UHGV virus genome: UHGV-1757948
Direction: 5' to 3' (one strand)
Length of the DNA: 20,276 bases
DNA from: a virus
Part shown: one piece after another, positions 1 through 16,368 of the stretch
Layout of the letters: every line of letters begins with the position of its first letter
Position numbering within the stretch: the first letter of the stretch is position 1
Translations under genes and position numbers: made by a program
The notes under the pieces: model-generated
The model's database searches: none
What the model saw: the letters and a program-made list of their open reading frames with translations, nothing else
Told to the model about the DNA's origin: nothing

Positions 1-85
1 AGTAAGATATAATCAAGAAGAGCATCTTCTGTATGTCAGCAACTATACTTGTAAAGCCGATGATAGCATACTTTATGAAATAAGT

Positions 86-3000
86 GTGGATTTAACAGAC
101 ACCCTGACCGTGTCTCAATCCTCATTCAGAGCACAGCTCGATTCCATAAAAACAGAGATACTTACATCCCTGACTTATGGCATGCGTGGTGACATTTTAG
201 CACAATGCGCGAAGTATTTTCTGCGGAAAGACAGTCCGGACACAGCCTTGGATATTATAACATTCCTCAAAGGGCTGCTTGTGGGAGACGGAGACTACGG
301 CATAGATGCGGACGGTACCGCACGGCTGAAGAAACTTCTTGCCGACGAAGCCACAATGAAAACGCTGACCGTGACAGGAAGGGCACATTTCTTCGAGCTT
401 GTCATAGATGAGCTGAACAGCGTCGGAGGTCAACTGATACTGTCCGCTGCTAACTGCACGGTACGCTCTGTCGAAAGAATAAGCGGAGCATGGCGTCTGT
501 GGTGGCTGGCGGAGGACAGCGACGGCAGAGCCGTGCAGAACATGTGGAAGGTCGGAGACCAGGCTCTGGCAATGACATCCAATCTTGCCGAGGGGACATC
601 ATATGATGCAGGAAACAGACTATGGTGGAGACTTGTCACGGCAACAGGGAGCGGAACACGGAACATTGACGGTGAGGACAGAAAGTGCCATTGGATTGAA
701 GTGTCTGAAGCCACGTGCGCGGCTGACAGCCTTGAGCCTGCAGAGGGTGACAGCGTTTGTCTGTGCGGACACCGTGGTGACGACACAGCGCGCAGCCATG
801 CGATAATAATAGCCGCCCACTCCACTCCGGATACCGAGCTGGAGAGTCCGTCATTCGCGCAATACAACGGAATCACAAGTTTTTCTCTAAGCCAGTACCG
901 CACGACATGGTTCGCGGCTAACGGCAATAAGATAAGAGGCGAGCTGGATGTGGACACTTCCGGTCTTGTCAGCTACACGCACCTTGCATGGGGAAACGGT
1001 CCGGACGACTGGACAAAGGACAAATCCCAGAGCACGGCAAAAGACTGGCTCATGCTCGGCATATGCACAGACCGCACGGAGAGCGACGTGGCTCTCGTCT
1101 ACAGCGACTATGCATGGTCAAGGATTAAAGGTACTGACGGAAAGACCACATACTTCCATGTGAAATATTCTTCAAACGAGAACGGAAATCCCATGACAGA
1201 GACGCCCAACCTCTACATCGGCACATACGTTGACTTCACTGAGGCAGACAGCAACGACCCCTCGGACTACACGTGGTCACGCTTCCAAGGATATGACGGG
1301 GAGCAGGGGATACCGGGGAAAAACGGTACGGACGGAAAGACAAGCTACCTTCACATCAAATATTCCGACGACGGGGGAAAGACGTTCACCGCCAGCAACG
1401 GTGAGACACCGGGTGCGTGGCTCGGGCAATGCGTAGACTTCAACTCATATGACCCGACAAGCGTTACCTCATATAAGTGGACACGGATACGCGGTGAGGA
1501 CGGAGCGGACGGAAGTGACGGTGAACCCGGCACGGACGGGCAGGACGGATTCTCGTGGGCACTTGACCCTGCCGCCATAACATTGGAGGCTGACAGTGAC
1601 GGTGTGGTGAGCATGCAGGATGCGACATCACGTCTGCGCGCATGGCTCGGCACGCGCGAGATGACTGTCACCATTACCGCCATAGAGCCAGTGCACTGTC
1701 TTGCGTCACGCAACGGGGCGCAGGTTACAATAACCGCAATAGGGACATATACGGCAGACTGGGGAGGTTCGGTGCCGTACGGAGCGGGATGGGTGCAGAT
1801 TACGGCACAGGCAACACTGGGAGGAGAGACCCGCAGTGTGAGCTGCCGCCTGTCCTTCACTGTATCGTCCATGGCACTCTCATCGCAGATTAAGGCTGAG
1901 ACGGACAGCATAAGCCTTAAAGTCGGCTATCTTGGGGCAAAGGACGGAAACATGGTGACCACTCCTGACATATTCCTGACAGGGAACGGGAACAAGACAT
2001 ACACAATCGGGGACATGTCAAGCCTGCGCGGAAAGACAATAACGGTATCATGCCTTGTCAAGACCGTATCCGCGGTTCCGGCGGCATCTGGCAACAGACG
2101 TATCGGCATGGAGCCCATGGTACGGTATGCCGACGGCAGCACGCAGTATCTCGGAACATGGAGGCAGATAACATCCACGGACACGTTCGAGGGACGCATA
2201 AGCTCCACACACAGGATACAGGATAAGGCTGTGGCGTCGGTAGAACAGTGTAACCTGTATATACAGGGCATATCATCAGGATACTCGTCCGTATCGCGTC
2301 CAAAGATAGAGACAGGTGCGGACGCGACAGACTGGGGACTCAGCGCGGAGGACAGGCTTAAAAGACCGAATCTTCTTCCAGGAACATCGGACTTCAGCCA
2401 ATGCACCGTACAGGATACCGTAGAGGCAGGAGCATACACGACACCTTACGGAGAAAAAATAAGCGTGGCACACGGTGTGAACGAAGCCGGGACATCATAC
2501 AAGGACGTCATCACATGGCGCAACGTGGTGCCCGAGCCGGGCGTACAGTATACGCTCTCATTCTGGGCGCGCGGCACAGGCAGCATCGGCTCGTACTTCT
2601 ATCCGAACTGCACCGACTGGGTCACAAGTCCGGGGACGAAGAACCAGACAGGTGTGACAGACGGATTCGTACAGTTCACGCTTGAAAGCGGATGGAACCG
2701 CTACCAGGTGACATGGAGCACACGCAACGATGTAAGCGGAGCGAAAAGTCTCATAGCGGCACGGCTCATGCCGGACAGTTCTGCACAGGGAGAGATCTGG
2801 ATATGCGGAGTGAAGCTGGAGAAAGGCAGCGAGGCGACAGACTGGCGTTCGGAGACAATCACGCACGACGAGCTGCAGGCGACAGGAATAGACATTGAGC
2901 ACAAGCGCATAAAGGTCACTGCCGACAACTTCGAGATACAGAACAACTCAGGCGAGACTGTCACCACTGTCGACGAGGCGGGCACCCTTACAGGTGTGAT

Positions 3001-3778
3001 GCTCCGCACTATGGACGAAGGACAGGGGCATGTGGAGATAAAGGGAGGACTGATTGAGGTAAAGAACCCTAACGGTGTGACCAACATCAAAATGGGATAT
3101 AACGGCTCATACATGGTACTGTCATATTATGACAATGACGGTACGTTCCTTTATGACCTCGGACCGTGGGGACTGTCCGGCAAGGATGTCTCGGAAGAAC
3201 GGTGGGAGACCAGCAGCAAATACGGACGCCTGCAGCTGACAGGGACCACATTCTCCACCGTAGGCGACATCGTTGGCAACAAACAGATAATGAACACCAT
3301 ATTCCAATATGGTCATGTGTACACGAAAACACCTTTGTACATGTATCTTGCAGGGCGCGTAAACGACACATATCTCAGCGGTGACTACGCCTCCACTCCG
3401 GAGATTGCAAGAGCCGCGAACGGCAGATGGTTCATGGAGCAGGGTAATGTGACCACGGCACAGGCTGTCACAGGAATGTGGGCGCAGGACAATCCGGAAT
3501 CGTTCATGATAGGCTCGCCTATGGACACACCGCCAATGGACTATACGCGATATGAAGATGACTATGCGGAAAAGGTGGATTTCTCCAGACAATGGTGCTC
3601 GCGCAATGTGTACAGATTCTCGAACATCGGAATCGTACAACCGGGAAGCGGCACCGTATACTACGGCAGCATGATAACGACAACAGCCGTATACATGAAT
3701 TATGACAGGGTGCAGATGATACAGATTAATCGCATTGACGATGATGACACGGACACGAACGGAAACATATATTTATGA
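86..3778 (+). CDS. Tail fibre / host-specificity protein with phage-tail-repeat-like modules, two collagen-like Gly-X-Y runs and a C-terminal lectin-like domain
   Basis: 1230-aa ORF. Three tandem ~60-aa modules (DYAWSRIKGTDGKTTYFHVKYS / DYTWSRFQGYDGEQG...SYLHIKYS / SYKWTRIRGEDGADG). Gly-X-Y runs GYDGEQGIPGKNGTDGKT and GEDGADGSDGEPGTDGQDG. C-terminal segment SFWARGTG...VKLEKGSEATDW recalls phage receptor-binding carbohydrate-binding domains. Start given as GTG at 86, but the frame is open to position 2, so the true start may lie upstream of the window; a different-frame ORF ends with TAA at 81-83. Confidence 0.8.
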   Translation: MDLTDTLTVSQSSFRAQLDSIKTEILTSLTYGMRGDILAQCAKYFLRKDSPDTALDIITFLKGLLVGDGDYGIDADGTARLKKLLADEATMKTLTVTGRAHFFELVIDELNSVGGQLILSAANCTVRSVERISGAWRLWWLAEDSDGRAVQNMWKVGDQALAMTSNLAEGTSYDAGNRLWWRLVTATGSGTRNIDGEDRKCHWIEVSEATCAADSLEPAEGDSVCLCGHRGDDTARSHAIIIAAHSTPDTELESPSFAQYNGITSFSLSQYRTTWFAANGNKIRGELDVDTSGLVSYTHLAWGNGPDDWTKDKSQSTAKDWLMLGICTDRTESDVALVYSDYAWSRIKGTDGKTTYFHVKYSSNENGNPMTETPNLYIGTYVDFTEADSNDPSDYTWSRFQGYDGEQGIPGKNGTDGKTSYLHIKYSDDGGKTFTASNGETPGAWLGQCVDFNSYDPTSVTSYKWTRIRGEDGADGSDGEPGTDGQDGFSWALDPAAITLEADSDGVVSMQDATSRLRAWLGTREMTVTITAIEPVHCLASRNGAQVTITAIGTYTADWGGSVPYGAGWVQITAQATLGGETRSVSCRLSFTVSSMALSSQIKAETDSISLKVGYLGAKDGNMVTTPDIFLTGNGNKTYTIGDMSSLRGKTITVSCLVKTVSAVPAASGNRRIGMEPMVRYADGSTQYLGTWRQITSTDTFEGRISSTHRIQDKAVASVEQCNLYIQGISSGYSSVSRPKIETGADATDWGLSAEDRLKRPNLLPGTSDFSQCTVQDTVEAGAYTTPYGEKISVAHGVNEAGTSYKDVITWRNVVPEPGVQYTLSFWARGTGSIGSYFYPNCTDWVTSPGTKNQTGVTDGFVQFTLESGWNRYQVTWSTRNDVSGAKSLIAARLMPDSSAQGEIWICGVKLEKGSEATDWRSETITHDELQATGIDIEHKRIKVTADNFEIQNNSGETVTTVDEAGTLTGVMLRTMDEGQGHVEIKGGLIEVKNPNGVTNIKMGYNGSYMVLSYYDNDGTFLYDLGPWGLSGKDVSEERWETSSKYGRLQLTGTTFSTVGDIVGNKQIMNTIFQYGHVYTKTPLYMYLAGRVNDTYLSGDYASTPEIARAANGRWFMEQGNVTTAQAVTGMWAQDNPESFMIGSPMDTPPMDYTRYEDDYAEKVDFSRQWCSRNVYRFSNIGIVQPGSGTVYYGSMITTTAVYMNYDRVQMIQINRIDDDDTDTNGNIYL
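1105..1558 (+). repeat. Intragenic tandem protein-module repeats (about three copies) including collagen-like triplet runs
   Basis: Repeated Y-x-W-S/T-R-I/F-x-G-x-DG ... S/T-Y-F/L-H-V/I-K-Y-S pattern read directly from the translation; Gly-X-Y runs at about 1288-1341 and 1492-1549. Confidence 0.55.
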
Positions 3779-3800
3779 TAAAAAAACAGGAGGACAGTAT

Positions 3801-3908
3801 ATGACATTGACAACATTGAACTTTTCCAAGACCGGAGGCTTGTGGCATGCGGAATGGACACATGGCGGTGAGGGAATATTACAGATAGACGGTGAGCCGG
3901 AACAGTAA
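3801..3908 (+). CDS. Small hypothetical protein (35 aa)
   Basis: ATG at 3801 preceded by a strong Shine-Dalgarno-like CAGGAGGA with about 8-nt spacing; ends TAA 3906-3908; sits between tail genes. Too short for the ORF track. Sequence MTLTTLNFSKTGGLWHAEWTHGGEGILQIDGEPEQ. Confidence 0.25.
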   Translation: MTLTTLNFSKTGGLWHAEWTHGGEGILQIDGEPEQ

Positions 3909-3924
3909 AGAAAGGAGACAGACC

Positions 3925-4578
3925 ATGAGACGTATAAGAATAGGAAACGACATCATTCTGCGCATAAGGCTTACACGCCGTGGCGGTGCAGAGAACCTCG
4001 AGGGAAAGAAAATAGGTCTTATGCTGCGCAACATTCTCGGCAGTGTGAGCCTTCTTGTAGTACAGTCAGGAGGGGAGCTGATAGCAGGATGGCAGGGCAC
4101 ACAGCAGCAGTGGACAGGTGCGTATACAGTGACACTCACAGAGGATTGGGGCGAGAACAACCGCAACACCGTGGATGAGGCATGCGCCTTCGAGCTTGTG
4201 TCAATAAGCAGCGACGAGGGTGTGGAGACCGGCACCGTGAACATCGAGCTTGACATGGACATCAGCGTGCCGGGCAACGGTCTGTCCGCCTATGAGATAG
4301 CCGTGCTGCACGGCTTTGAGGGCACAGAAGAAGAATGGCTGGAGAGTTTAAAGCCCGACACGAGTAATTTTGTGACAACCGAACAAGTAGCGGAAGACTA
4401 TCAGCCAAAGGGAGATTATGTTACAGAAGCACCTAAGGATGGGAAAAACTATGTACGGAAAGATGGAAGCTGGACTGAGTTTGCAGGAAGTGGAAAAGCT
4501 AATGCCTTTTTTTCGAATAATATCCTTAAATTTGAGAGCGGAGGAGCACAATTTAACAACAACATATTAATAATTTGA
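3925..4578 (+). CDS. Tail fibre protein with a conserved central motif and a phage-fibre-repeat C-terminus
   Basis: ATG at 3925 preceded by AAAGGAG. Contains LSAYEIAVLHGFEGTEEEWLESLK, a motif I recognise from phage tail fibre proteins, followed by an EDYQPKGDYVTEAPKDG repeat. Composition shifts from GC-rich to AT-rich at the motif. Confidence 0.7.
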   Translation: MRRIRIGNDIILRIRLTRRGGAENLEGKKIGLMLRNILGSVSLLVVQSGGELIAGWQGTQQQWTGAYTVTLTEDWGENNRNTVDEACAFELVSISSDEGVETGTVNIELDMDISVPGNGLSAYEIAVLHGFEGTEEEWLESLKPDTSNFVTTEQVAEDYQPKGDYVTEAPKDGKNYVRKDGSWTEFAGSGKANAFFSNNILKFESGGAQFNNNILII

Positions 4579-4580
4579 TT

Positions 4581-5315
4581 ATGTCAGAAAAAATTAGCCA
4601 AATTCAGATTAACGCCGACGTCAGAGATATAGAAGACGCGCAGGCATTACACAAAGGTGATAGTTTAGGCACAATAAATGGACAGTCTTTTAATGAAGGT
4701 AATGACTTAAACATTGAAGTTGGTACCAATGATTACAATGCCCTTAAAAACAAGCCACAAATAAACGGACATGAGTTGTCTGGGAATAAATCAGCAAAAG
4801 ATTTAGGCTTACAAGAAGCAGGTGACTATGTAACTCCCGAAGATATACCCGATGTGAGCGAACTGGCAACAAAGACAGAATTGGCAGAAGGACTGGAAGG
4901 CAAGCAGCCAAAGGGTGATTATGCCACAAAGGCAGAAATACCAGATGTGAGTGGATTTATTACCTCTTCACAAGCGGAAGAAAAATATCAGCCGAAAGGA
5001 ACTTATGTCACCACGACTGAACTATCTAAAAAGGCAGATAAAATCGCAACCGAAAATGTAGCCGAAACTACAAAGGAATTGCAACCGAACAAGTATTACA
5101 TATTTGGCGAAGTTGCCACACTTACCATAACTCTTGCAGCAGGAGAAGAAAATGTCCTTGCTGAATACATGTTTGAGTTTACAAGCGGCACAACTCCAAC
5201 AATATTGTCACTGCCCGAGGACGTTAAATGGATAGGTGAAAGCACGATTGAGGCAAGCAAGACATATCAAGTGAGCATCGTCAATAATATAGCAGTCATG
5301 GGAGGTGCAGCATGA
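4581..5315 (+). CDS. Tail fibre / receptor-binding protein with repeated Q-P-K-G-(D/T)-Y units
   Basis: ATG at 4581 (track start is TTG at 4575). Repeats GKQPKGDYATKAEIPDVSG and EKYQPKGTYVTTTELSKKADK, and a KPQINGHELSGNKSAKDLGLQ motif typical of phage fibre proteins. AT-rich. Stop overlaps the next start (ATGA at 5312-5315). Confidence 0.7.
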   Translation: MSEKISQIQINADVRDIEDAQALHKGDSLGTINGQSFNEGNDLNIEVGTNDYNALKNKPQINGHELSGNKSAKDLGLQEAGDYVTPEDIPDVSELATKTELAEGLEGKQPKGDYATKAEIPDVSGFITSSQAEEKYQPKGTYVTTTELSKKADKIATENVAETTKELQPNKYYIFGEVATLTITLAAGEENVLAEYMFEFTSGTTPTILSLPEDVKWIGESTIEASKTYQVSIVNNIAVMGGAA

Positions 5316-6001
5316 GCATATACAGACGCAGGCTTATGATAGCCAACACACTTAAAAAGAGTGACAGCAACATAAATTATCCTGGACTTATTGCAGCATG
5401 GTCGGCAGCAGGAAAGAGCAATGACGATGCTGATAGAAACGTGTTGCACGATTTGACGGGTAATGGGCTTGACATTACGCTGAACGGCTTTGCGTTCAAT
5501 ACAGAAGGAAGTGGCTATGGACATCCCGAATACCCCGATGCTCTTGTCTTTGACGGAGTGGATGATTACGGTATTAATGAGGAAATGCCGATATTGACTG
5601 ATTATACGGTTATTGTTAAGAGAGAAATATTTAGTGGCGGATTATATTCTCATGTAATCGGAAAACGTACAGGCTCTATACCGGGAGCTTTTTGGTTTGA
5701 AAGAGGTAAAGGAGATACTCATAGCTTTGGAATGGCTAATTCAATCAATATATTAAATGAAAGTATATCTTGGCAGTCCACGACAAGCTATAACGGGACA
5801 CCTATAGAAAAAGGTGAAGCTGAGGATATTCATGAATTAACGATAGGTGTAGCAAGCAAAACATATCCAGATTTTAGGGGTATGGCTTTCTACTCCGCCT
5901 ACCTCTTTGACCGCTCATTGGGTGAGCAGGAGATAAAGTCATTTATTAGAAAGTATATAGACGCAGACTATCTGTTACCGAGTGAACAAACAACAGAATA
6001 A
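5312..6001 (+). CDS. LamG / concanavalin-A-like lectin-domain protein (tail-associated)
   Basis: Segment NVLHDLTGNGLDITLNGFAFNTEGSGYGHPEYPDALVFDGVDDYG resembles Laminin_G_3-type jelly-roll domains; translationally coupled to the upstream fibre gene. Confidence 0.55.
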   Translation: MSIYRRRLMIANTLKKSDSNINYPGLIAAWSAAGKSNDDADRNVLHDLTGNGLDITLNGFAFNTEGSGYGHPEYPDALVFDGVDDYGINEEMPILTDYTVIVKREIFSGGLYSHVIGKRTGSIPGAFWFERGKGDTHSFGMANSINILNESISWQSTTSYNGTPIEKGEAEDIHELTIGVASKTYPDFRGMAFYSAYLFDRSLGEQEIKSFIRKYIDADYLLPSEQTTE

Positions 6002-6006
6002 AGAAT

Positions 6007-6663
6007 ATGAGATTTATTATAGCAACAATAGCACAAGCAAAGGCGCACGGAATTGAGATTATATCGACAATGCGCCAATCAGTGGATAAGACACAAGTAG
6101 TGTTCCACGAAGAATATGTAAAGAACATTGACGAATTTAATGCCTTAAAGAGGTATGAATTTGATGATGCTGAATTTACAGACCTTATGGCAAGTGAAGC
6201 ATGGACACACGGAGAAGATTATGTGCAGCCAAATGAGGACTTTGCAAAGGTATTAGCCATGCAGATATTGACAGCAGACACAAAGGCGCAGATAAACACC
6301 ATGTCGCTGTCTAACAACGAGGCTCTGAAAGTTAAGGAGTTTTATCCCGAATGGAAAGAAGGAATTGACGTCAACAAAGGCGAAAAGTACAACTGTGACG
6401 ATGACCTTTGGGAAGCACTTACAACGCATAAGACGCAGGCGAATTGGCGTCCGTCTTTGGAAACCGCATCTATATGGAAACATATTGACGAGGAACATGA
6501 GGGCACAGAGGACGACCCGATACCATACGCACCGCCTATGGAGTTGTTCAACGGTAAATATTACACGCAAGACGAGGTAAAATACAGGTGTACCCGTGAC
6601 AGCGGAATACCTTTGTCACAGAACCTGAGTGAACTTGTGGGATTATATGTGGAACTTGTTTAA
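6007..6663 (+). CDS. Hypothetical protein (218 aa), last gene of the AT-rich fibre cassette
   Basis: Long ORF with no competing frame, plausible amino-acid composition, no recognisable motif. Confidence 0.5.
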   Translation: MRFIIATIAQAKAHGIEIISTMRQSVDKTQVVFHEEYVKNIDEFNALKRYEFDDAEFTDLMASEAWTHGEDYVQPNEDFAKVLAMQILTADTKAQINTMSLSNNEALKVKEFYPEWKEGIDVNKGEKYNCDDDLWEALTTHKTQANWRPSLETASIWKHIDEEHEGTEDDPIPYAPPMELFNGKYYTQDEVKYRCTRDSGIPLSQNLSELVGLYVELV

Positions 6664-6680
6664 TTTAAAAACCAAAGACT

Positions 6681-6944
6681 ATGAAGGAAAAAGTTATCAG
6701 ATTCGTGACAAACAGATGGTTCGGCTTCGTGGCAGGACTGGTAATCGCAATGCTGTACATGTGGCAGGAACAGAGCCTCGGCAGCGTCAACGCGTGGATA
6801 ATGGGAATCATCACACCTATGCTCTTCGGAGCGTTCGCCGAGGTGGTGAGACATGTCACCACGGAGGACACGTACAAGTGGAAGAACCTGCTGTGGTGGC
6901 TCGCGGGAGCTGTCATTGGAGTAGTGGCGATGCTTGTGGTTTGA
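6681..6944 (+). CDS. Holin-like small membrane protein with three predicted TM segments
   Basis: 87 aa with hydrophobic stretches WFGFVAGLVIAMLYMW, AWIMGIITPMLFGAFA and LLWWLAGAVIGVVAMLVV; lies upstream of the endolysin. Confidence 0.55.
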   Translation: MKEKVIRFVTNRWFGFVAGLVIAMLYMWQEQSLGSVNAWIMGIITPMLFGAFAEVVRHVTTEDTYKWKNLLWWLAGAVIGVVAMLVV

Positions 6945-7026
6945 TTCCCGGCATCCAGGGCAGGGACTCATATGCCCTGCCCTATCATTTGACTTGATGT
7001 ATGTACGAATAAAAAAACAAGGGAGA

Positions 7027-7260
7027 ATGAACAAGATTATAATGTGGTTTAAGACAAGCAACCGATGGAAGCATCTGCTTGGCGGTCTGATTATCGGTAT
7101 GGGAGCGGATGATATATACTGTGCGGCATACGCAGGCATAGGCGTTGCGGCAGCCCTTGAACTGAAAGACAGGCAATGGGGCGGCAAATGGGACTGGACA
7201 GACTTCGGGCTGACAACAGCCGGAACAGTTGTGGGACAATGCATAAGGATGATGATATGA
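7027..7260 (+). CDS. Holin-like small membrane protein, paralog of the 6681 gene (possible holin/antiholin pair)
   Basis: Internal ATG at 7027 preceded by GGGAGA. N-terminus MNKIIMWFKTSNRWKHLLGGLIIGMG parallels MKEKVIRFVTNRWFGFVAGLVIAML of the upstream gene. Stop overlaps the next start (ATGA 7257-7260). Confidence 0.45.
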   Translation: MNKIIMWFKTSNRWKHLLGGLIIGMGADDIYCAAYAGIGVAAALELKDRQWGGKWDWTDFGLTTAGTVVGQCIRMMI

Positions 7261-7865
7261 ACGAGGTACAAAGCACATTGGAGGTCGCAAAAGGCATAAG
7301 CGACTATGGGATAATGATAGTCATCTGCGCGGTGTTCCTGCTGCTCGCCTCAGGTCTGATGATTGCGTGTTTCCGCTGGTTCAAATCAGCGATAAGCAAC
7401 ATAATATCCTACACTGACGAGCTGCGCGAGCTTAACGGAAAGCTGGAAAACAACAACCACGTCATGGTGACGATAGCGGAGGGACTGATGCCTGAGACAC
7501 AACTGCGGATAAAGAACATATCCGGAGCGTTCTTTGACCTTGCGGTGGAGAAAGTATGCAGACTCCTGAAGAAAATAAGGGAGGAGAACCATATAGCCGA
7601 CAAGGAAAGGACAAAGGCTAAGATACGCACCCTGCTGAGCAACATGTATGAGGACAGGAACAGCAAGTTCGACAATTTCCATTACCGTGGGAAAAAGCTC
7701 TCGGAGTACTGCAATCCGGAATGGACAGAATGGGTGGCGAAAGTAATAGAGGGAGAGCTGTACAATGAGAACGGTGCGAACAACGGAAGAGCCTACACCA
7801 ACGTCAGCGCAGTATATGACAATATAAAATTGGACTTTTATCACAGAATGACAGACCAGATATGA
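7257..7865 (+). CDS. Signal-anchor membrane protein of the lysis cassette (possible i-spanin-like or lysis regulator)
   Basis: Start taken at ATG 7257 (MNEVQ...) rather than the track start 7176. Single N-terminal TM segment IMIVICAVFLLLASGLMIACF followed by a charged, helical-looking domain; position between holin-like genes and endolysin. Confidence 0.45.
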   Translation: MNEVQSTLEVAKGISDYGIMIVICAVFLLLASGLMIACFRWFKSAISNIISYTDELRELNGKLENNNHVMVTIAEGLMPETQLRIKNISGAFFDLAVEKVCRLLKKIREENHIADKERTKAKIRTLLSNMYEDRNSKFDNFHYRGKKLSEYCNPEWTEWVAKVIEGELYNENGANNGRAYTNVSAVYDNIKLDFYHRMTDQI

Positions 7866-7895
7866 CGATAAACGCATTTTACAACATTATAAATC

Positions 7896-8489
7896 ATGGA
7901 AAAGTTTAAAGTTATACTTGATGCGGGACACGGAAGGGACACCGCAGGGAAACGTTCGCCTGACGGACGCCTGCTCGAATACGCATACGCCCGTGAGATT
8001 GCAGTGCGTCTTGAAAGGGAACTCAAGGCACGTGGATATGACGCGCAGCGCATTGTGCCCGAGGAAAACGACATCTGCCTGAAAGAGCGGTGCGAAAGGG
8101 CAAACAGAATTTATGCCGCGACAGGAAAGAAAGCGATACTTGTCTCAATACACTGTAACGCGGCTGGTGCCGACGGCAAATGGCATGACGCCAGAGGATG
8201 GTCGGCTTATGTCTCGCGCAACGCTTCAAAGAAGAGCAAAGAGCTCGCCTGCCGTCTGATTGACGCGGCAGAGACACAAGGACTGAAAGTCCGAAGATAC
8301 TCACAGGATGAGCCATATTGGACACAGAATCTCGCAATATGCCGTGACACAAATTGTCCCGCAGTCCTGACTGAAAACCTTTTTCAGGACAACCGGGAGG
8401 ACGTGGACTATCTGCTGAGCGAGAAAGGCAAGCGAACCATTGTGGAGCTGCACGTGGAAGGCATCATGGCGTACTTGGGGAAAGTGTGA
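7896..8489 (+). CDS. N-acetylmuramoyl-L-alanine amidase (Amidase_3 family) endolysin
   Basis: Amidase_3 signature segments VILDAGHGRDTAGKRSPDG, VSIHCNAAG and VLTENLFQDNREDVDYL (zinc-ligand and active-site regions); 197 aa; follows the holin-like genes. Confidence 0.9.
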   Translation: MEKFKVILDAGHGRDTAGKRSPDGRLLEYAYAREIAVRLERELKARGYDAQRIVPEENDICLKERCERANRIYAATGKKAILVSIHCNAAGADGKWHDARGWSAYVSRNASKKSKELACRLIDAAETQGLKVRRYSQDEPYWTQNLAICRDTNCPAVLTENLFQDNREDVDYLLSEKGKRTIVELHVEGIMAYLGKV

Positions 8490-8514
8490 GCTCGTTTCCA
8501 AAATGGAAATAACT

Positions 8515-8544
8515 GACGACAGTTGCAAATTCCGCAACCGTCGT
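8515..8544 (+). terminator. Hairpin after the endolysin gene (candidate terminator of the late operon)
   Basis: Inverted repeat ACGACAGTTGC - aaattcc - GCAACCGTCGT (10 of 11 bp paired) starting 26 nt after the amidase stop. No immediate T-run, so intrinsic-terminator status is uncertain. Confidence 0.3.
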
Positions 8545-8627
8545 AAAGGCGTTCTTTGACATTGTGGGTTGCCGTTAAAAATACAATATTTTCGAAAAAT
8601 TATATACAATTATTTTGGGAAATTATA

Positions 8628-8635
8628 TATCTTTG
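8628..8635 (+). promoter_or_regulatory. Possible Bacteroidota-type -7 promoter element (TAnnTTTG) in an AT-rich intergenic region
   Basis: TATCTTTG matches TAnnTTTG about 38 nt upstream of ATG 8673, flanked by direct repeats AAATTATATA (8597-8606 and 8619-8628). Could be chance in AT-rich DNA. Confidence 0.2.
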
Positions 8636-8647
8636 CACAATATAAGA

Positions 8648-8669
8648 AGCCCTTACGGCAATAAGGGCT
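8648..8669 (+). promoter_or_regulatory. Perfect 8-bp stem-loop immediately upstream of the 8673 start codon
   Basis: AGCCCTTA - cggcaa - TAAGGGCT; ends 3 nt before ATG 8673. Could be a 5'-UTR translational control element or a terminator if the gene actually starts at ATG 8709. Confidence 0.35.
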
Positions 8670-8672
8670 GAA

Positions 8673-9302
8673 ATGACAGACGGTGTGCCCGTCTTAAATT
8701 TAAATTATATGGCAAAGATAAATAATAATTTTGAGAAACGAAAACGCATCACGAAAAATGAAGCGTTGGAACTGCTAAAAGATTGTTATGAGGACATCTT
8801 CAAGGCGTATTACGCAGGTCTGGAAAATTACAATGAAGAAATAAATATGACCATACCTGAAGCAAGGACAAGGCTTGTAGGTCCTTTGCTTAACGCAAAA
8901 ATAACAGAGAGTTTCATTCTCACATTTCCCGAGAACTGGAACAAAGGCAAATACGGAAGGATAATATTCAGATGGAACGGTGTGCTCATGCTCATCAAGA
9001 AATTGAACAAGAATGACAAGCCGTCTTACATTCCGACAATACTTTCAGATTCGATTGTCAACCAATACCAATTACCGCTTTTCCAAGGCGATGAAGGCAA
9101 GGAAGAGCCGATATTGATTTTCGGATATACAAAGGACGGTTTCGGGCAGCTCGTAAACCCGAGAATTGTCTTGTATGACGATGGGGTTCAATGGACTGCC
9201 TATATGGAAGACGGTGTAAATATGCCGACTGCCAATACAGACACGCAGGAGATTATTGTCCGCCTGAAAAAGAAAGAGACAGGAGAAAAGAAGGCAGAAT
9301 AA
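8673..9302 (+). CDS. Hypothetical protein (209 aa) in the AT-rich accessory insert
   Basis: Long ORF with plausible composition and no recognisable motif. Alternative start at ATG 8709 (MAKINNN). Confidence 0.5.
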   Translation: MTDGVPVLNLNYMAKINNNFEKRKRITKNEALELLKDCYEDIFKAYYAGLENYNEEINMTIPEARTRLVGPLLNAKITESFILTFPENWNKGKYGRIIFRWNGVLMLIKKLNKNDKPSYIPTILSDSIVNQYQLPLFQGDEGKEEPILIFGYTKDGFGQLVNPRIVLYDDGVQWTAYMEDGVNMPTANTDTQEIIVRLKKKETGEKKAE

Positions 9303-12187: not shown

Positions 12188-12934
12188 TCACTGCGACGCG
12201 CACTCGCTTTCAAGCTCGTTCCAATCCTCGTCGGTAATGTATTTGCGGCATTCAGGATTAAGCTTCAACGCCTCATAGCCGACACGGTTGAGGAAACGCT
12301 CGCTCGTCAGCTTCTTCTCTATGATACGGAAGGCGAGCATGGCGTTGGCGTCCTTGTTCAGGTCTATGGTTATCCCGTCCTCGGTCTTGCATATCATGTC
12401 CGCAGCCTGCTCAAAATGGTAGAGGGTGCGTGACAGCCGCGCAGGATTCATGTATTTGTCAAAATGAATGCCGGGCGCGGCTTCGTCAGCCGTCTTTATC
12501 TGCACATCGTAAAGATGTACCGCGTATGCCAGAAGATTGCGGGCGGTCTCGACATAGGACTTAAGCTCCGTTTCGGTCTGCCTGTACTTGTCGAGCAGCG
12601 ACTTTATGGAGAAGCGCAGGATGTCGACATGCGGCTGTATGTCCTCCTCCACTGTGTCAAGATAGTCATAGAAGAGCTGCGTGCGGTCTCCGAAGTTCTG
12701 GATGTGAAGCTTCTCGTAGGCGTAGTACGCCCTCTCCGCTTCCCTGATGTGACGCTTCAGAGTGAAACGGTAGTACGGTGTCTTCCGTACTCTCTCTATG
12801 GCGTCGAACATTGTCTTGCCCGCCACTGTGTTGGCGGCTCCTATAACAAGGTTGACGAGTGAGTTGAGACGCTCGAACACCTCCATCGCGCGCTGGCTGC
12901 TCACTGCCGTAGCCTGTCGTACGTATGCTGTCAT
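12188..12934 (-). CDS. Hypothetical protein (248 aa), GC-rich
   Basis: Long ORF with plausible composition, no recognisable motif; stop/start overlap with the upstream gene at 12931-12934. Confidence 0.5.
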   Translation of the reverse strand: MTAYVRQATAVSSQRAMEVFERLNSLVNLVIGAANTVAGKTMFDAIERVRKTPYYRFTLKRHIREAERAYYAYEKLHIQNFGDRTQLFYDYLDTVEEDIQPHVDILRFSIKSLLDKYRQTETELKSYVETARNLLAYAVHLYDVQIKTADEAAPGIHFDKYMNPARLSRTLYHFEQAADMICKTEDGITIDLNKDANAMLAFRIIEKKLTSERFLNRVGYEALKLNPECRKYITDEDWNELESECASQ

Positions 12935-13191
12935 TGCTGACCTCCTTTCTTCAAATCATTCAAAGCCTTGTCATTGCAGCTTTTACAAAACAATTTATTG
13001 AGAGTTCCTTTTAGCATGACTAAATAGACATCATCGTCATCCTTGAACTTGCGGTTGCAATTAAAACAAAGCCTTTGAACATAAAGCCCTATACTTTCTC
13101 TCGACTTGCGGAACTGCCAGAATTTCAAGAATGGCTTATCAACAGCGTTTAGTACCTCGTATTCACGTTTGGTGATTTTCACTACTTTCAT
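12931..13191 (-). CDS. Small zinc-ribbon-like protein (86 aa)
   Basis: Two CxxC pairs (CFNC ... CKSC); ATGA overlap with the YopX gene. Confidence 0.45.
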   Translation of the reverse strand: MKVVKITKREYEVLNAVDKPFLKFWQFRKSRESIGLYVQRLCFNCNRKFKDDDDVYLVMLKGTLNKLFCKSCNDKALNDLKKGGQQ

Positions 13192-13562
13192 TTTATACCT
13201 CCTTTCAGTAGCTCTGGGTTGTCGTGGATGTTGCCGATTATCGTTGCTTTATCGGTAGGAAGGAAGCCTAATCTTTCAATACCTCCGATAAAAGAGCATT
13301 CAGAATCACTATATTCCACATCCACAATATCTCCGTCTGGAAATTGAATAATATCCCCTTCGTAAATCTCCTTCCCCTTTTTATCATACAAGCCTGTGAA
13401 CTGGCTTACGGTGGAGGGGGCGATTTCTCGTTTCCACACGGCATTAGAGCTGTCGCTCTTTTCGAGAATGTTGCAGTCTCCGTCCGCCCATATTAAAAGC
13501 GAACCATAGCACCACTCATCGTTTGCAAGGCGTTTGCCTCTGAACTTGATTGCTCGTTTCAT
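13188..13562 (-). CDS. YopX-family phage protein
   Basis: MKRAIKFRGKRL N-terminus, TGLYDKKGKEIYEGDII and C-terminal IIGNIHDNPELL are hallmark YopX motifs. Confidence 0.85.
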   Translation of the reverse strand: MKRAIKFRGKRLANDEWCYGSLLIWADGDCNILEKSDSSNAVWKREIAPSTVSQFTGLYDKKGKEIYEGDIIQFPDGDIVDVEYSDSECSFIGGIERLGFLPTDKATIIGNIHDNPELLKGGIK

Positions 13563-13870
13563 GACCGCACCTCCTTTCCGTCGGACAGAAGGTCGTCAAG
13601 ATAGGCGAACTTGTCAACCTCTCCCCATAATCGTTCAAACGACAGGTCGCGCAGGTCTTTGTAGACAGCGGCATTCCCGTTCTTGAATAAGACGAGTGTC
13701 TTGCGCTTAGGTTGGCAAGATACAGTGCCGTTGTGCCACACGGCGTTGATGCGCCAGTTGGCACCATCTATAAACCCATGTTCATAATACGGCACGTATT
13801 TTGGATTGAAGATGCTGTTGTCAATAACACAACTTTCTGTTGCCGCCTTTTCAATCTGTTCTCTTGTCAT
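13559..13870 (-). CDS. Hypothetical protein (103 aa)
   Basis: ORF with plausible composition; ATGA overlap with the YopX gene start. Confidence 0.45.
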   Translation of the reverse strand: MTREQIEKAATESCVIDNSIFNPKYVPYYEHGFIDGANWRINAVWHNGTVSCQPKRKTLVLFKNGNAAVYKDLRDLSFERLWGEVDKFAYLDDLLSDGKEVRS

Positions 13871-13903
13871 ATCTTATTTGTATTAATATTCTTTCCCTCC
13901 ATT

Positions 13904-14068
13904 TTATCTTGTGATTTTAGAGGAAATTTTCCTTGTATTTCCTTTGTTTTCCTTTGCCAAACACTCATTGCCACATCTTCTGCCCACGTCGTACTTATCG
14001 CACCATCCGTCTCCGTAGAAGCCTTCGTTAATGAAGTGGATACATGAGCCGCAGTGTCTTGCTTTCAT
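13904..14068 (-). CDS. Cys-rich micro-protein (54 aa), translationally coupled downstream of the PP-loop ATPase
   Basis: Hand translation MKARHCGSCIHFINEGFYGDGWCDKYDVGRRCGNECLAKENKGNTRKISSKITR; ATG overlaps the upstream TGA (ATGA at 14065-14068). Not in the ORF track (under 60 aa). Confidence 0.35.
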   Translation of the reverse strand: MKARHCGSCIHFINEGFYGDGWCDKYDVGRRCGNECLAKENKGNTRKISSKITR

Positions 14069-14982
14069 TTTTCGTCGTCTTTAAATTCAAATTTCTGTTG
14101 CAGGAACTCGTCAGCGTAGAACTGCTTGTAGCTCTTGTCGCTTATCCACCACCTAAAGCCTGTTTCAGCGTCGTTGAAATTGTGGTCGATATATCCGTTG
14201 TCTATCAGCCATTGGATTGTCTTTATCCAATTGCGTTTGACGTGCGGCCAGCGTTTAGCATCTTCCTTCTTTATCCGTGCGTTCGACATAGGGCAACAGA
14301 TGCAGCCAATGCGTGTATAACCCTCGTCGTAGAGTTCGCAGTGTGGTATGCCGTTCATGTTAAGGAACTCCCACACGTCGCGCTCCGTCCAATAGATTAT
14401 GGGCGATACAAGGATTTTGTCCTTACCGCCGACACACGCAACCATGCTCTCCTCATGTTCGCTCCATTGGTCAAAGGTTTCCTCATTGCGCTTGCCCTTT
14501 ATCTCTGTGGATATTTCCTCACGTTTTGCACGCCGTGCGCTTTCTTCTTTTCTCACACCGATAAGTGTCACCTTGCCAACGCCTGACGTTTCCTTGAACT
14601 CGGCACAACACCAACGCAAAGTCCTTGTCGGCAAGATGTGCTTTTTCTTCGCCATTTCGTAAATGCTCATCCGTGGTTTGATTAGCTCCACATCGGGGTA
14701 TTGCGTCTTGACGAAGCGGATGACTTCGGGCGGGTCTATGCTCGTAAGGTTCATGTGAGCCTTGAAGCGGACACCGGCCAGCTTTGCGACATGGTAGAGG
14801 CATTGGCTGTCCTTGCCGCCACTGAACGCAAGGTAAAAGCCGTTTTCGGGGTCGAGGCGCAACGCCATTTTCTCCGACTTCCGCAAAAGTTCGACGGAGT
14901 GTTCCAGCTTCCTTGCAAGCGGACGGCTTACCTTTGACATTACGGTGTCGTGGTCAAGCAGTATTATTTCACACGCTTTCAT
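14065..14982 (-). CDS. PP-loop ATP pyrophosphatase of the PAPS-reductase / DndC-like family
   Basis: PP-loop motif in LAFSGGKDSQCLYHV plus Cys clusters (WCCAEF, GCICCPMS) compatible with Fe-S or zinc binding; 305 aa. Confidence 0.8.
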   Translation of the reverse strand: MKACEIILLDHDTVMSKVSRPLARKLEHSVELLRKSEKMALRLDPENGFYLAFSGGKDSQCLYHVAKLAGVRFKAHMNLTSIDPPEVIRFVKTQYPDVELIKPRMSIYEMAKKKHILPTRTLRWCCAEFKETSGVGKVTLIGVRKEESARRAKREEISTEIKGKRNEETFDQWSEHEESMVACVGGKDKILVSPIIYWTERDVWEFLNMNGIPHCELYDEGYTRIGCICCPMSNARIKKEDAKRWPHVKRNWIKTIQWLIDNGYIDHNFNDAETGFRWWISDKSYKQFYADEFLQQKFEFKDDEK

Positions 14983-15260: not shown

Positions 15261-16162
15261 TGCTTCATATTTTTAAGTTTGTAACTATTCTCATTAAGCC
15301 ACTTTTGGAAATACCATAACTGACCGCATCCGCCACCTATATCGTCTTGCCCTGCCGGGTTAAATACTCTCGTATTAAAACCTACGTCATTCATCTTTGA
15401 ATTAAAGTCACGGATTAAGTCAAGTTGTCGCTGTATTGATGAATGTACACTTTCATCCTTTTCGCAAATAACAGACAAAGTGACCTCCCATATATCAGGG
15501 TTAAATAATTCAGAGAGCCTCATAGCATCTTCCATATCATTATTCCCGACATGTACGCAATAATTAAAGAAAGGCTTTCTTCCGACATAAGAAGCCCAAA
15601 ACTCACCCGTAGAAGCTATTTGCCGAAGTGTTGACGTATTCGTTGCTATAAGTTTCTTCCTTTTTTCATCTGTACTTTCATGTACTGAAAATTGAAGACC
15701 TACTTTATCTATTTCTTTCGATAGTGCAATAAAATCAGACATGTATAAATACATCATGTGAGGGGCAGAAGTGCTTACAAGAAGTTGTGCGTTTGGATAT
15801 TTCACATGTAGACTTTCTATTGCAGGCTGCAATGCCGAGTAGTTGTAAAAAGGCTCTCCCATGCTCATAAACATAATTTGGAACTTTTTAATGTCATCAG
15901 TGCGGCAATCAATAGTAGATAATGCCCCATCAATCTGTTGTATTATTTCGTCAGTAGAAAGATTTCTGACAAAAAATTTGCCTGTTCCGCAGAAAGAACA
16001 TCCAACTGGACAACCGCTTTGAACCGAACAACATATAACTGTCCTTTTTTTGTATTCTCCATATCTATAAAGAACAGTTTCAGCAATAGCATTTGGCTTG
16101 TCCCACTCAAACACGAATTTCTTTACATTCGTATCACTTGATTCAAATACTTTTGTTTTCAT
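15257..16162 (-). CDS. RlmN/Cfr-family radical-SAM methyl synthase, N-terminally truncated
   Basis: VICCSVQSGCPVGCSFCGTG holds the CxxxCxxC radical-SAM cluster plus the upstream RlmN Cys118-equivalent; MFMSMGEPFYN matches the MGMGEP motif; LLVSTSA matches the STSG region; C-terminal GQDDIGGGCGQL matches the Cys355 region (DIDAACGQL) of E. coli RlmN. 301 aa, about 70 residues shorter at the N-terminus than RlmN; markedly AT-rich relative to neighbours. Confidence 0.85.
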   Translation of the reverse strand: MKTKVFESSDTNVKKFVFEWDKPNAIAETVLYRYGEYKKRTVICCSVQSGCPVGCSFCGTGKFFVRNLSTDEIIQQIDGALSTIDCRTDDIKKFQIMFMSMGEPFYNYSALQPAIESLHVKYPNAQLLVSTSAPHMMYLYMSDFIALSKEIDKVGLQFSVHESTDEKRKKLIATNTSTLRQIASTGEFWASYVGRKPFFNYCVHVGNNDMEDAMRLSELFNPDIWEVTLSVICEKDESVHSSIQRQLDLIRDFNSKMNDVGFNTRVFNPAGQDDIGGGCGQLWYFQKWLNENSYKLKNMKQ

Positions 16163-16368
16163 TTGCCGTATGTTTTTGTTTTCTTGGGTTTGTAACTATC
16201 GGTTTCTTCGTCCCACTCCACGCAGTCGGGGCAGTAGAGTTTGCCGTCGATTTCTTCCCAATCGCACATCTTCGCCATATACCTTGCCATACCTTCACTA
16301 AATTCATAGCCATGCTTACTTCCGCACCCGTCGCACACGGCTTGGTACATCGTCACTTTCTGTTTCAT
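16159..16368 (-). CDS. Small zinc-ribbon protein (69 aa)
   Basis: CDGC ... CPDC pairs; stop overlaps the radical-SAM start (ATGA at 16159-16162). Confidence 0.5.
   Translation of the reverse strand: MKQKVTMYQAVCDGCGSKHGYEFSEGMARYMAKMCDWEEIDGKLYCPDCVEWDEETDSYKPKKTKTYGK

What the first reader, a model, noticed from the sequence alone, without database searches (positions are those of the whole stretch)
4290..6670. Sharp compositional break inside a tail-fibre gene at a conserved motif: likely receptor-binding module swap
The 5' part of the 3925-4578 gene is GC-rich, like the upstream tail gene. Composition flips to clearly AT-rich exactly at the conserved SAYEIAVLHGFEGTEEEWLESLK segment and stays AT-rich through the next three genes (repeat-containing fibre protein, LamG-like protein, 218-aa protein) until the lysis cassette. 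Conserved linker motifs are known recombination points for exchanging distal fibre and receptor-binding modules, so this cassette was probably acquired from a different phage and may set host range.
Basis: partly seen in the sequence, partly recalled or inferred. Interest (0 to 1): 0.58.

Follow-up and report, generated by a model that had tools for sequence, protein, structure and literature searches.

The report
Swapped tail-fibre tip cassette in phage
A gut phage carries an AT-rich block of tail-fibre tip genes joined to its GC-rich tail genes at a short conserved motif, and near-identical relatives carry different blocks joined at the same motif, so this is a clear but ordinary case of phages trading receptor-binding modules.

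Summary
GC falls from 0.57 to 0.34 within about 300 nt. Third-codon-position GC falls from about 0.62 to about 0.33. The best change point is nt 4365 (support 4311-4413), just after the motif (nt 4285-4353). It is the largest or third-largest GC step in the window, depending on scale.

Phages with 95-98% identical flanks carry at least five unrelated distal fibre regions on the same N-terminal 120-aa anchor. Divergence starts inside or at the edge of the motif in every case (about nt 4281, 4302, 4314, 4346).

A lower-GC phage (GC 0.42) shares 91% nucleotide identity with part of the cassette. This points to a lower-GC donor pool.

The block is itself mosaic, not one acquisition. It encodes:
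- a stub fibre ending in a T4-foldon-like segment
- a second fibre protein
- a concanavalin-A-like lectin-fold protein
- a 218-aa protein

The effect on host range is untested. This is a known kind of event. The mildly new point is that the junction motif is widespread across phages and has no named family.

The parts
2..3778 (+). Large tail protein gene. It is GC-rich backbone and is open to the left edge of the window, so it is 5'-truncated here.
   Evidence: ORF call. The frame is open from nt 2. PHROG tail, tail-fibre and host-specificity families match. GC 0.539, GC3 0.615. 96-100% identical to L002-L004 and L085-L088, apart from an 1854-nt segment that they have and the window lacks.
3735..3908 (+). 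57-aa remnant of a 469-aa gene that relatives carry between the tail gene and the fibre gene.
   Evidence: In-frame deletion between two copies of ACGGTGAGCCGGAA (L003 6762-6775 and 7998-8011). L096, another carrier of this cassette type, shows the same deletion junction; L098 and L099 have only a 35-44-aa ORF at this position.
3925..4284 (+). N-terminal anchor domain of the proximal fibre protein. The gene is 3892/3925-4578 (228 aa from GTG, 217 aa from ATG). This part has backbone composition.
   Evidence: GC3 0.626. 95-98% identical in proteins of 217, 553, 777 and 1222 aa. The domain lies at or near residue 1 in nearly all of the 150 hits listed (433 with E<=1e-3), in proteins of 81-1222 aa. 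The attachment role is inferred.
4285..4353 (+). Junction motif SAYEIAVLHGFEGTEEEWLESLK, where homology with relatives ends and composition flips.
   Evidence: Coordinates. Divergence onsets at about 4281, 4302, 4314 and 4346. It is an island of about 69% nucleotide identity between unrelated phages, against 26-29% in the flanks. It is present in 307 isolate phage records.
4411..4479 (+). T4-fibritin-foldon-like segment (GDYVTEAPKDGKNYVRKDGSWTE) near the C-terminus of the 228-aa protein. Probable trimerisation cap.
   Evidence: phmmer matches to foldon-tagged PDB chains and to fibritin itself, best E 1e-7. Pfam Fibritin_C E 0.0039, 17.7 bits, below the 21-bit cut-off.
4581..5315 (+). Second fibre protein (244 aa), a separate gene. 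It has YQPKGDY repeats and a conserved C-terminal beta-sandwich domain (about residues 155-241, nt about 5043-5303).
   Evidence: No frame allows fusion with the upstream gene. 450 homologues, many of them free-standing 142-250-aa proteins. AF2 pLDDT is above 90 for the C-terminal domain. Only weak fold matches, to phage fibre and tailspike parts. The same C-terminal domain ends the single-gene fibres of L003, L004, L005 and L104.
5312..6001 (+). 229-aa protein with a concanavalin-A-like (LamG-type) lectin fold. The ends are conserved and the middle varies. Candidate receptor-binding component.
   Evidence: AF2 pLDDT 88.8, pTM 0.86. Foldseek PDB top hits are the lectin-like domain of trypanosomal sialidases and the botulinum toxin binding domain, E 8e-8 to 1e-4. 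No Pfam hit. Relatives share 5163-5496 and 5887-6001 but not the middle.
6007..6663 (+). 218-aa protein, the last gene of the AT-rich block. Function unknown.
   Evidence: PHROG 27545 and 30034, both of unknown function. Weak match of residues 111-167 to the carbohydrate-binding C-terminal region of a chitin oligosaccharide deacetylase (3wx7, E 0.025). 97% identical in L003/L004. GC3 is 0.45-0.50 in every phage that carries it.
6664..6944 (+). Right boundary: homology with the L002-type relatives resumes here. It includes an 87-aa gene (6681-6944), the first gene of the lysis region, with GC-rich composition again.
   Evidence: blastn resumes at 6664 at 90-92% identity. GC3 0.713. An Amidase_3 endolysin lies at 7896-8489. 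The holin role of the 87-aa protein is inferred.

Best explanation
The window comes from a human-gut metagenome phage whose tail-fibre locus is modular.

A GC-rich backbone encodes the large tail protein and the first 120-130 residues of the fibre, presumed to be the virion-attachment domain. That domain ends in a 23-residue motif, SAYEIAV..GFEGTEEEWLESLK. Everything after the motif, up to the lysis genes, is an exchangeable cassette.

In this phage the cassette consists of:
- a short shaft capped by a foldon-like trimerisation segment
- a second fibre protein
- a lectin-fold protein
- a 218-aa protein

The cassette has the synonymous-site composition of lower-GC phages from the same gene pool. 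It was most likely brought in by recombination within the motif. The motif is conserved at the DNA level even between otherwise unalignable phages, and it probably also marks a structural joint at which chimeras stay functional. The cassette has since been reshuffled at further short conserved segments.

Shown here: the composition break, the alternative cassettes on near-identical backbones, the clustering of junctions in the motif, and the folds.

Inferred: the direction of transfer, recombination rather than selection as the cause of the clustering, the attachment role of the N-terminal domain, and receptor binding and host range.
For: Composition break: (GC3 0.62 to 0.33, change point nt 4365, LLR 57 against a permutation maximum of 10).

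Alternative cassettes on the same backbone:

| Type | Loci or proteins | Distal region |
|---|---|---|
| A | window, L096, L097, L099, P0247 | 217/228-aa stub plus second fibre gene |
| B | L002, L085, L086 | 732-aa fibre, distal GC3 0.21 |
| C | L003, L004, L087, L088, P0244, P0245 | 553-1222-aa fibre, distal GC3 0.48 |
| D | L098 | distinct post-motif sequence, as in L104 |
| F | P0246 | 777-aa fibre |

Junctions: ungapped mismatch maps show near-identity up to 4301 (L002, L086), 4313 (L003, L004, L087, L088), about 4280 (L085) and 4346 (L098), followed by saturation. Small polymorphic patches inside the motif are shared across cassette types. This is the pattern repeated recombination would leave.

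Motif as a homology island: 62-83% nucleotide identity to 28 of the 29 unrelated phages tested (58% to the other; GC 0.29-0.67). Exact runs reach 17 nt in that comparison and about 29 nt against L104 in the dot alignment.

Donor pool: L104 has GC 0.416, tail-gene GC3 0.41 and fibre GC3 0.35. It shares 91% nucleotide identity with window 4934-5496 and 84% with 5997-6782. Elsewhere it aligns only with 232-1144 of the tail gene (88%) and with short patches. Gene by gene, cassette GC3 is alike in the window and in L104, despite backbones of 0.54 and 0.42 GC.

Whole family: the anchor domain lies at or near the N-terminus in nearly all listed hits. In the 13 representatives examined, the motif follows it and unrelated sequence follows the motif.

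Not an assembly artefact: the type-A junction recurs in independent assemblies from five different samples.
Against: - Direction is not proven. No variant matches the backbone GC3 (the closest, type C, is 0.48 against about 0.6), so all distal regions may be imports or may simply evolve under different constraints.
- Part of the AT-rich block (the 218-aa gene and the ends of the lectin gene) is shared at 92-97% with type-C relatives. The block was therefore not acquired as one piece relative to them.
- Junction clustering could come from selection for chimeras that fold, at a domain boundary, rather than from a recombination hot spot. The data cannot separate the two.
- The host is unidentified. 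Two genome scans gave nothing usable.
- No receptor or adsorption data exist.
- The IMG/VR motif sample was drawn with the exact peptide FEGTEEEW as one scan pattern, which inflates the apparent conservation. The tblastn search does not have this bias.
Confidence: 0.82

Rival explanations
1. There was no transfer. The distal fibre genes are native, and they are AT-rich because of gene-specific constraints or an AT-biased mutational or diversifying process acting on receptor-binding genes.
For: In every relative examined the lectin-fold gene is AT-rich (GC3 0.29-0.37). The 218-aa gene has an intermediate GC3 (0.45-0.50) whatever the backbone. Low GC is thus a property of these genes wherever they sit.
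Against: Distal fibre regions on 95-98% identical backbones are not diverged versions of one another. They are unalignable, and their GC3 values are 0.21, 0.33 and 0.48. A 563-nt stretch is 91% identical to a phage whose backbone does not otherwise align except in a few segments. No diversity-generating-retroelement repeat pair was found.
Confidence: 0.07
2. The junction is an artefact: metagenome assemblers joined two different phages at the shared motif.
For: The window and all its relatives are metagenome assemblies. The break lies at a sequence shared by many phages.
Against: The same junction, with the same left and right flanks, was assembled independently in IMG/VR 3300045988, ENA ERZ917983, ENA ERZ28660569, Logan DRR748190 and Logan ERR14205139. 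Exact identity between variants in the motif is at most about 30 nt, shorter than the k-mers named in the contig titles (k127, k141). The backbone resumes on the far side of the cassette.
Confidence: 0.02
3. The swap is real, but the motif is only a structural domain boundary. Recombination happens anywhere (illegitimate or microhomology-driven), and only chimeras joined at this joint survive selection.
For: In the 13 family representatives examined the motif sits exactly between the conserved anchor and the variable distal part, even at 30-50% identity where DNA homology is gone. Another rearrangement in the same locus used only 14 nt of identity.
Against: The motif is an island of nucleotide identity with exact runs of 17-29 nt between high- and low-GC phages. 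Shared polymorphic patches inside it look like gene-conversion tracts. The two mechanisms are not exclusive.
Confidence: 0.3

Closest known systems
Distal tail-fibre locus of T-even phages (gp37/gp38): adhesin specificity swapped by recombination between conserved motifs (Tetart et al. 1996, 1998, as summarised in PMC3157838)
   Same: A conserved proximal part and hyperplastic distal parts. [quoted passage not shown] The result is chimeric fibres on an otherwise conserved virion (for the literature statement; for this locus).
   Different: The motif is different: not the T-even conserved motifs and not the glycine-rich motifs of gp38. The proteins are unrelated. This is a gut metagenome phage of unknown host. 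The cassette spans four genes, and here the fibre is split into two genes. No host-range data exist.
Horizontal exchange of tail-fibre genes among unrelated phages (the P2, Mu, P1 and lambda fibre mosaics) and tailspike modularity with conserved N-terminal anchors (for example PMC10408124)
   Same: A conserved N-terminal attachment module joined to interchangeable receptor-binding modules. The modules are shared between otherwise unrelated genomes.
   Different: The P2/Mu/P1/lambda comparison rests on general knowledge and I did not test it here. Only the title and abstract of PMC10408124 were seen, in the result list. No sequence similarity to those proteins was found or sought beyond the PHROG, Pfam and PDB searches.
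T4 fibritin foldon
   Same: Residues 174-196 of the 228-aa protein (GDYVTEAPKDGKNYVRKDGSWTE) align with the foldon [23 protein letters not shown]. Like the foldon, the segment lies near the C-terminus of a fibrous protein.
   Different: About 30 further residues follow it. The Pfam Fibritin_C score is below the curated cut-off. Trimerisation is not shown.
Branched or multi-protein fibres in which one fibre protein carries docking domains for others (T5-like DT57C LtfA/LtfB, PMC4728585; CBA120 TSP4 N-terminal domains, PDB 7rej)
   Same: The fibre is built from several gene products. The conserved C-terminal domain of the second fibre protein is always followed by a gene whose product has a conserved N-terminus. 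The fold search gave weak hits to the TSP4 N-terminal region.
   Different: The fold matches are weak (E 0.1-0.4, TM about 0.2) and a docking role is speculation. Only the title and abstract of PMC4728585 were seen.

Membership tests
Mosaic phage tail-fibre locus with module exchange at a conserved motif | The proximal (anchor) part is conserved among close relatives. | tested here: met
   Window 3889-4301/4338 is 93-96% identical to L002-L004 and L085-L088. The N-terminal 120 aa are 95-98% identical in P0244-P0247.
Mosaic phage tail-fibre locus with module exchange at a conserved motif | Otherwise near-identical genomes carry non-homologous distal parts. | tested here: met
   At least five distal types, in proteins of 217 to 1222 aa. 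The flanks are 95-98% identical on both sides.
Mosaic phage tail-fibre locus with module exchange at a conserved motif | Exchange junctions coincide with a short conserved sequence. | tested here: met
   Divergence onsets at about 4281, 4302, 4314 and 4346, inside or at the edge of the motif at 4285-4353. The GC3 change point is at 4365.
Mosaic phage tail-fibre locus with module exchange at a conserved motif | The distal module determines receptor specificity and host range. | not testable with these tools
   Only indirect evidence: a lectin-type fold for the 229-aa protein. The host is unknown.
T4 fibritin foldon (Pfam Fibritin_C) | Sequence match to the roughly 27-residue foldon at the end of a fibrous protein. 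| tested here: inconclusive
   phmmer E 1e-7 to 1e-3 against foldon-bearing PDB chains and fibritin. Pfam Fibritin_C scores 17.7 bits, below the 21-bit cut-off.
T4 fibritin foldon (Pfam Fibritin_C) | Forms a trimeric beta-hairpin propeller that nucleates trimerisation. | not testable with these tools
   No multimer prediction or experiment was available.
LamG / concanavalin-A-like lectin domain | Jelly-roll beta-sandwich fold of the ConA-like superfamily. | tested here: met
   AF2 model with pLDDT 88.8. Foldseek PDB hits to the sialidase lectin-like domain, the botulinum and tetanus toxin binding domains and a GH43 arabinanase accessory domain, E 8e-8 to 3e-4, TM (query-normalised) 0.45-0.58.
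LamG / concanavalin-A-like lectin domain | Sequence membership in a curated LamG or Laminin_G family. | tested here: not met
   No Pfam hit even at E<=5, and no NCBIfam hit. It resembles the fold but is not a member of a named sequence family.
Diversity-generating retroelement target (Mtd-type variable fibre) | A template-repeat and variable-repeat pair, with a nearby reverse transcriptase. | tested here: not met
   The window has no direct repeat of 35 nt or more apart from short coding repeats. No reverse transcriptase appeared among the proteins scanned. The rest of the phage genome was not examined.
Invertible tail-fibre switch (Gin/Cin/Pin type) | Inverted repeats flanking alternative fibre C-termini, plus an invertase. 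| tested here: not met
   The only inverted repeat is a 15-nt, 87% pair, and none of 35 nt or more exists. All cassette genes are on one strand.

The most novel reading that the evidence does not exclude
The 23-residue motif SAYE[IV]A...GFxGTEEEWLxSL(K/T)G may be a universal joint of tailed-phage fibres.

What was observed:
- It has no Pfam or NCBIfam family, no solved structure detectable by sequence, and no hit in the searchable literature.
- It occurs in 307 isolate phage genomes, on Escherichia, Pseudomonas, Staphylococcus, Mycobacterium, Microcystis and crAss-like phages among others.
- It occurs in many metagenome phages in quite different contexts: before collagen-like repeats, before coiled coils, and in tandem copies.

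The reading is that this is a self-contained structural unit whose DNA-level conservation also makes it a portable recombination adaptor, one that lets distal fibre modules move between phages of different families, GC content and hosts.
Probability: 0.3. Interest if true: 0.6.

Novelty: new member of a known kind. Interest (0 to 1): 0.35.

Why it matters
Modular exchange of receptor-binding parts is the main way tailed phages change hosts, and this locus is a clean natural example from the human gut. Several interchangeable cassettes sit on one backbone, the junction is mapped to within a few tens of nucleotides, and a plausible donor pool is identified.

In practice, the motif gives a natural splice point for engineering chimeric fibres in this phage group. 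The set of natural variants (types A, B, C, D and F) is a ready-made panel for linking fibre modules to host strains.

The motif is broadly distributed and has no annotated family. Defining it as a domain family would be worthwhile, because it could improve the annotation of tail-fibre genes, which are currently labelled inconsistently as sheath, assembly, fibre or hypothetical protein.

None of this changes current understanding of phage evolution.

Tried and rejected
- **Isolate phages, DNA.** A blastn search of 3700-6700 against 50,697 isolate phage genomes found no match. No cultured relative exists in that collection.
- **Host identification.** The first found nothing. The second found only distant hits in metagenome bins of inconsistent taxonomy. 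Contig look-ups gave no organism names. No tRNA genes are present.
- **Word-indexed protein search.** Run with the anchor domain, it returned only 3 proteins. The exhaustive HMMER search was needed.
- **Is the motif a junction outside this family?** I compared the flanks of 48 motif-bearing loci. All pairs similar only upstream were from this family. All pairs similar only downstream were collagen-like low-complexity matches. The test was uninformative.
- **Frameshift fusion of the 228-aa and 246-aa genes.** Rejected: every frame has stops between them.
- **Retroelement or invertible switch.** Rejected: no suitable repeats.
- **Function of the 246-aa C-terminal domain.** Fold searches gave only weak, generic hits to phage fibre parts.
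- **Function of the 218-aa protein.** Only a weak carbohydrate-binding-module-like match, E 0.025.
- **Literature.** String searches for the motif found nothing.
Full report
**1. The observation**

The window is phage DNA throughout. It holds tail genes, a lysis region with an Amidase_3 endolysin, an ImmA/IrrE-HTH regulator and, on the minus strand, YopX, PAPS-reductase-like and radical-SAM-like genes. It has no tRNA genes.

GC falls from 0.567 (4051-4350) to 0.343 (4501-4800) in 300-nt windows. In 100-nt windows it falls from 0.61 (4225-4324) to 0.28 (4500-4599). Among all positions in the 20-kb window, this step ranks first at 300- and 500-nt scales and third at 200 nt.

The shift is at synonymous sites. 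GC3 is 0.615 in the tail gene, 0.626 in the first 131 codons of the fibre gene and 0.609 in the motif. It is then 0.324, 0.344, 0.362 and 0.454 in the rest of the fibre gene and the next three genes. It returns to 0.713 in the first lysis-region gene.

A likelihood change-point analysis of GC3 places the break at nt 4365, with a support interval of 4311-4413. The LLR is 57.3, against a maximum of 10.4 in 2000 permutations. The motif SAYEIAVLHGFEGTEEEWLESLK occupies nt 4285-4353, so the flip lies at its 3' end.

**2. Comparison with relatives**

An IMG/VR contig is 99.96% identical to the window (L001/L079). Relatives from IMG/VR and other human-gut metagenomes share 95-98% nucleotide identity on both sides of the block but not within it. 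All fetched loci and representative proteins whose anchor domain is at least 95% identical to the window's (P0244-P0247) fall into these distal types:

| Type | Members | Distal region |
|---|---|---|
| A | window, L096, L097, L099, P0247 | 217/228-aa stub plus a separate second fibre gene |
| B | L002, L085, L086 | one 732-aa fibre, distal GC 0.29, GC3 0.21 |
| C | L003/L088, L004/L087, P0244, P0245 | 553-1222 aa, distal GC3 0.48 |
| D | L098 | post-motif sequence like that of L104 |
| F | P0246 | 777 aa |

Ungapped mismatch maps show sparse differences up to a sharp point, then saturation. The points are:
- 4301/4302 for L002 and L086
- 4313/4314 for L003, L004, L087 and L088
- about 4280 for L085
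- 4346 for L098

All lie in or at the edge of the 69-nt motif. Inside the motif, small polymorphic patches are shared across cassette types. For example, the 4302-4317 variant occurs in L096 and L099 (type A) and in L085 (type B). Repeated exchange within the motif would produce this pattern.

Against type B, homology resumes at 6664, three bases after the stop of the 218-aa gene.

Against type C only inner parts differ. Homology returns at 5163-5496 (82-88%), and at 5537 or 5887 onward (92-97%). The block is thus a mosaic with further junctions:
- at the YQPKGDY-coding repeats, about 4857-4989
- at the end of the conserved N-terminus of the lectin-fold gene, about 5496
- at the start of its conserved C-terminus, about 5881-5887

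**3. Source of the AT-rich DNA**

L104 is a lower-GC phage: locus GC 0.416, tail-gene GC3 0.41, fibre GC3 0.35. It has a single 396-aa fibre with the same architecture of anchor, motif, shaft and conserved C-terminal domain.

Its sequence is 91% identical to window 4934-5496 and 84% identical to 5997-6782. Elsewhere it aligns only with 232-1144 of the tail gene (88%) and with short patches. L005 (GC 0.41) and L080-L083 (GC 0.38-0.39) share parts of the cassette at 71-74% nucleotide identity, with short patches up to 89%.

Gene by gene, cassette GC3 is similar in the window and in L104 even though the backbones differ (0.54 and 0.42 GC). The cassette genes carry their own composition from backbone to backbone. 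This is what transfer from a lower-GC pool predicts. The direction of transfer remains an inference.

**4. The motif**

The anchor domain family is large: 433 representatives at E<=1e-3. In nearly all of the 150 listed, the domain lies at or near residue 1, in proteins of 81-1222 aa. In the 13 representatives examined the motif follows the domain, and what follows the motif is unrelated from one to the next: Ala-rich coiled coil, foldon-type shaft, NYYNKQEI repeats, globular domains.

Beyond this family, the motif occurs in 307 of 50,697 isolate phage records. These include Escherichia (100), Pseudomonas (65), Staphylococcus (25), Mycobacterium (22), Microcystis and a crAss-like phage. The genes are annotated inconsistently as fibre, spike, sheath, assembly or hypothetical protein.

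It also occurs in about 70 unrelated IMG/VR contigs, next to collagen-like repeats or coiled coils, or in tandem copies. That sample was drawn partly with the exact peptide FEGTEEEW, so its conservation is inflated.

At the DNA level the motif averages 69% identity with 29 unrelated phages of GC 0.29-0.67, against 26-29% for the flanks. Exact runs reach 17 nt in that comparison and about 29 nt against L104 in the dot alignment.

No Pfam or NCBIfam model covers it, no PDB chain matches it by sequence, and no searchable paper contains it.

**5. What the cassette encodes**

*The 228-aa protein.* It is anchor, motif and a short shaft. Residues 174-196 (GDYVTEAPKDGKNYVRKDGSWTE) match the T4 fibritin foldon, with best E 1e-7 against foldon-tagged PDB chains. 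Pfam Fibritin_C scores below its cut-off.

*The 244-aa protein.* Its gene is separate, because stops in every frame rule out a frameshift fusion. Its C-terminal 90 residues are a confidently predicted beta-sandwich. That domain also ends the single-gene fibres of types C, L005 and L104, and it occurs as a free-standing 142-250-aa protein in hundreds of contigs. Fold searches return only weak matches to phage fibre and tailspike parts.

*The 229-aa protein.* The model is good (pLDDT 88.8, pTM 0.86). Its fold is a ConA-like lectin jelly roll. The top PDB hits are the trypanosomal sialidase lectin-like domain, the botulinum and tetanus toxin binding domains and a GH43 accessory domain. Its N- and C-termini are conserved across relatives and its middle varies, which makes it a reasonable candidate for the receptor-contacting part.

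*The 218-aa protein.* It is conserved and of unknown function, with a weak carbohydrate-binding-module-like match.

**6. Mechanism and rivals**

Best explanation: modular exchange of the distal fibre cassette by recombination in the conserved motif, with lower-GC phages as donors, followed by further shuffling at other short conserved segments. My confidence is 0.82.

The rivals and why each ranks lower:
- **Gene-specific composition without transfer.** This is contradicted by unalignable alternatives on near-identical backbones and by the 91% match to L104.
- **Assembly chimera.** This is contradicted by the same junction in five independent samples and by exact identity between variants of only about 30 nt or less.
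- **Diversity-generating retroelement or invertible switch.** Neither fits, because no suitable repeats exist.
- **Selection at a domain boundary rather than a recombination hot spot.** This remains open and is not exclusive of the main explanation.

**7. Comparison with the known, and verdict**

[quoted passage not shown] 1996 and 1998). It is also the pattern known for tail-fibre and tailspike mosaics generally. The proteins and the motif are different, and the host is unknown.

I rate it a new member of a known kind, with interest 0.35. It is well documented and useful as a natural splice point and variant panel, but it would not surprise a specialist. The most novel reading still open is that the unnamed motif is a general, cross-phylum fibre joint and recombination adaptor (probability about 0.3).

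Noticed in passing
window 3735-3908: A 57-aa ORF is the remnant of a 469-aa gene that lies between the tail and fibre genes in relatives (L003 6608-8017). The window has a precise in-frame deletion between two copies of the 14-nt sequence ACGGTGAGCCGGAA. L096, another carrier of this cassette type, has the same deletion junction, and L098 and L099 have only a 35-44-aa ORF there. Presence of the 469-aa gene therefore correlates with cassette type.
   Followed up: partly
window 1144/1145 (inside the tail gene 2-3778): Relatives carry 1854 extra nucleotides (618 codons) here. The site is flanked by repeat units of about 286 nt (window 1135-1420 resembles L003 3138-3423 at 90-95%). The large tail protein therefore also varies by gain or loss of repeated domains. 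The gene is open to the left edge of the window.
   Followed up: partly
window 4411-4479: A segment closely resembling the T4 fibritin foldon (GDYVTEAPKDGKNYVRKDGSWTE) lies in a gut-phage fibre stub. It was found because it matches hundreds of engineered foldon-tagged vaccine antigens in the PDB.
   Followed up: partly
window 6922-7926: The genes between the 87-aa protein and the endolysin are replaced by unrelated genes in L002, L085, L086, L096 and L097, while the flanks stay 85-96% identical. This is a second exchangeable block, inside the lysis region.
   Followed up: no
window 19182-19316 (minus-strand gene 18959-19675, DUF7666): About five tandem copies of a 27-nt unit (80-89% identical) lie inside a coding region.
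   Followed up: no
window 8551-8850, 12900-13200, 13800-14100 and 15300-16200: Several other AT-rich patches (GC 0.32-0.39) with sharp edges, for example steps near 8463-8575 and 12914-12929. The whole genome is compositionally mosaic, not only the fibre locus.
   Followed up: no
window 4285-4353 and 307 isolate phage records: The junction motif is widespread in phages of Proteobacteria, Firmicutes, Actinobacteria and Cyanobacteria and in crAss-like phages. It has no Pfam or NCBIfam model, no PDB match by sequence and no hit in the searchable literature. The genes that hold it are annotated inconsistently.
   Followed up: partly
L107-L112 (distant relatives), gene at 4001-4429 and the next gene: In distant phages the conserved C-terminal fibre domain is a free-standing 142-aa protein, followed in five of six loci by a large 640-651-aa protein. 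This suggests a conserved pairing between this domain and the downstream protein.
   Followed up: no
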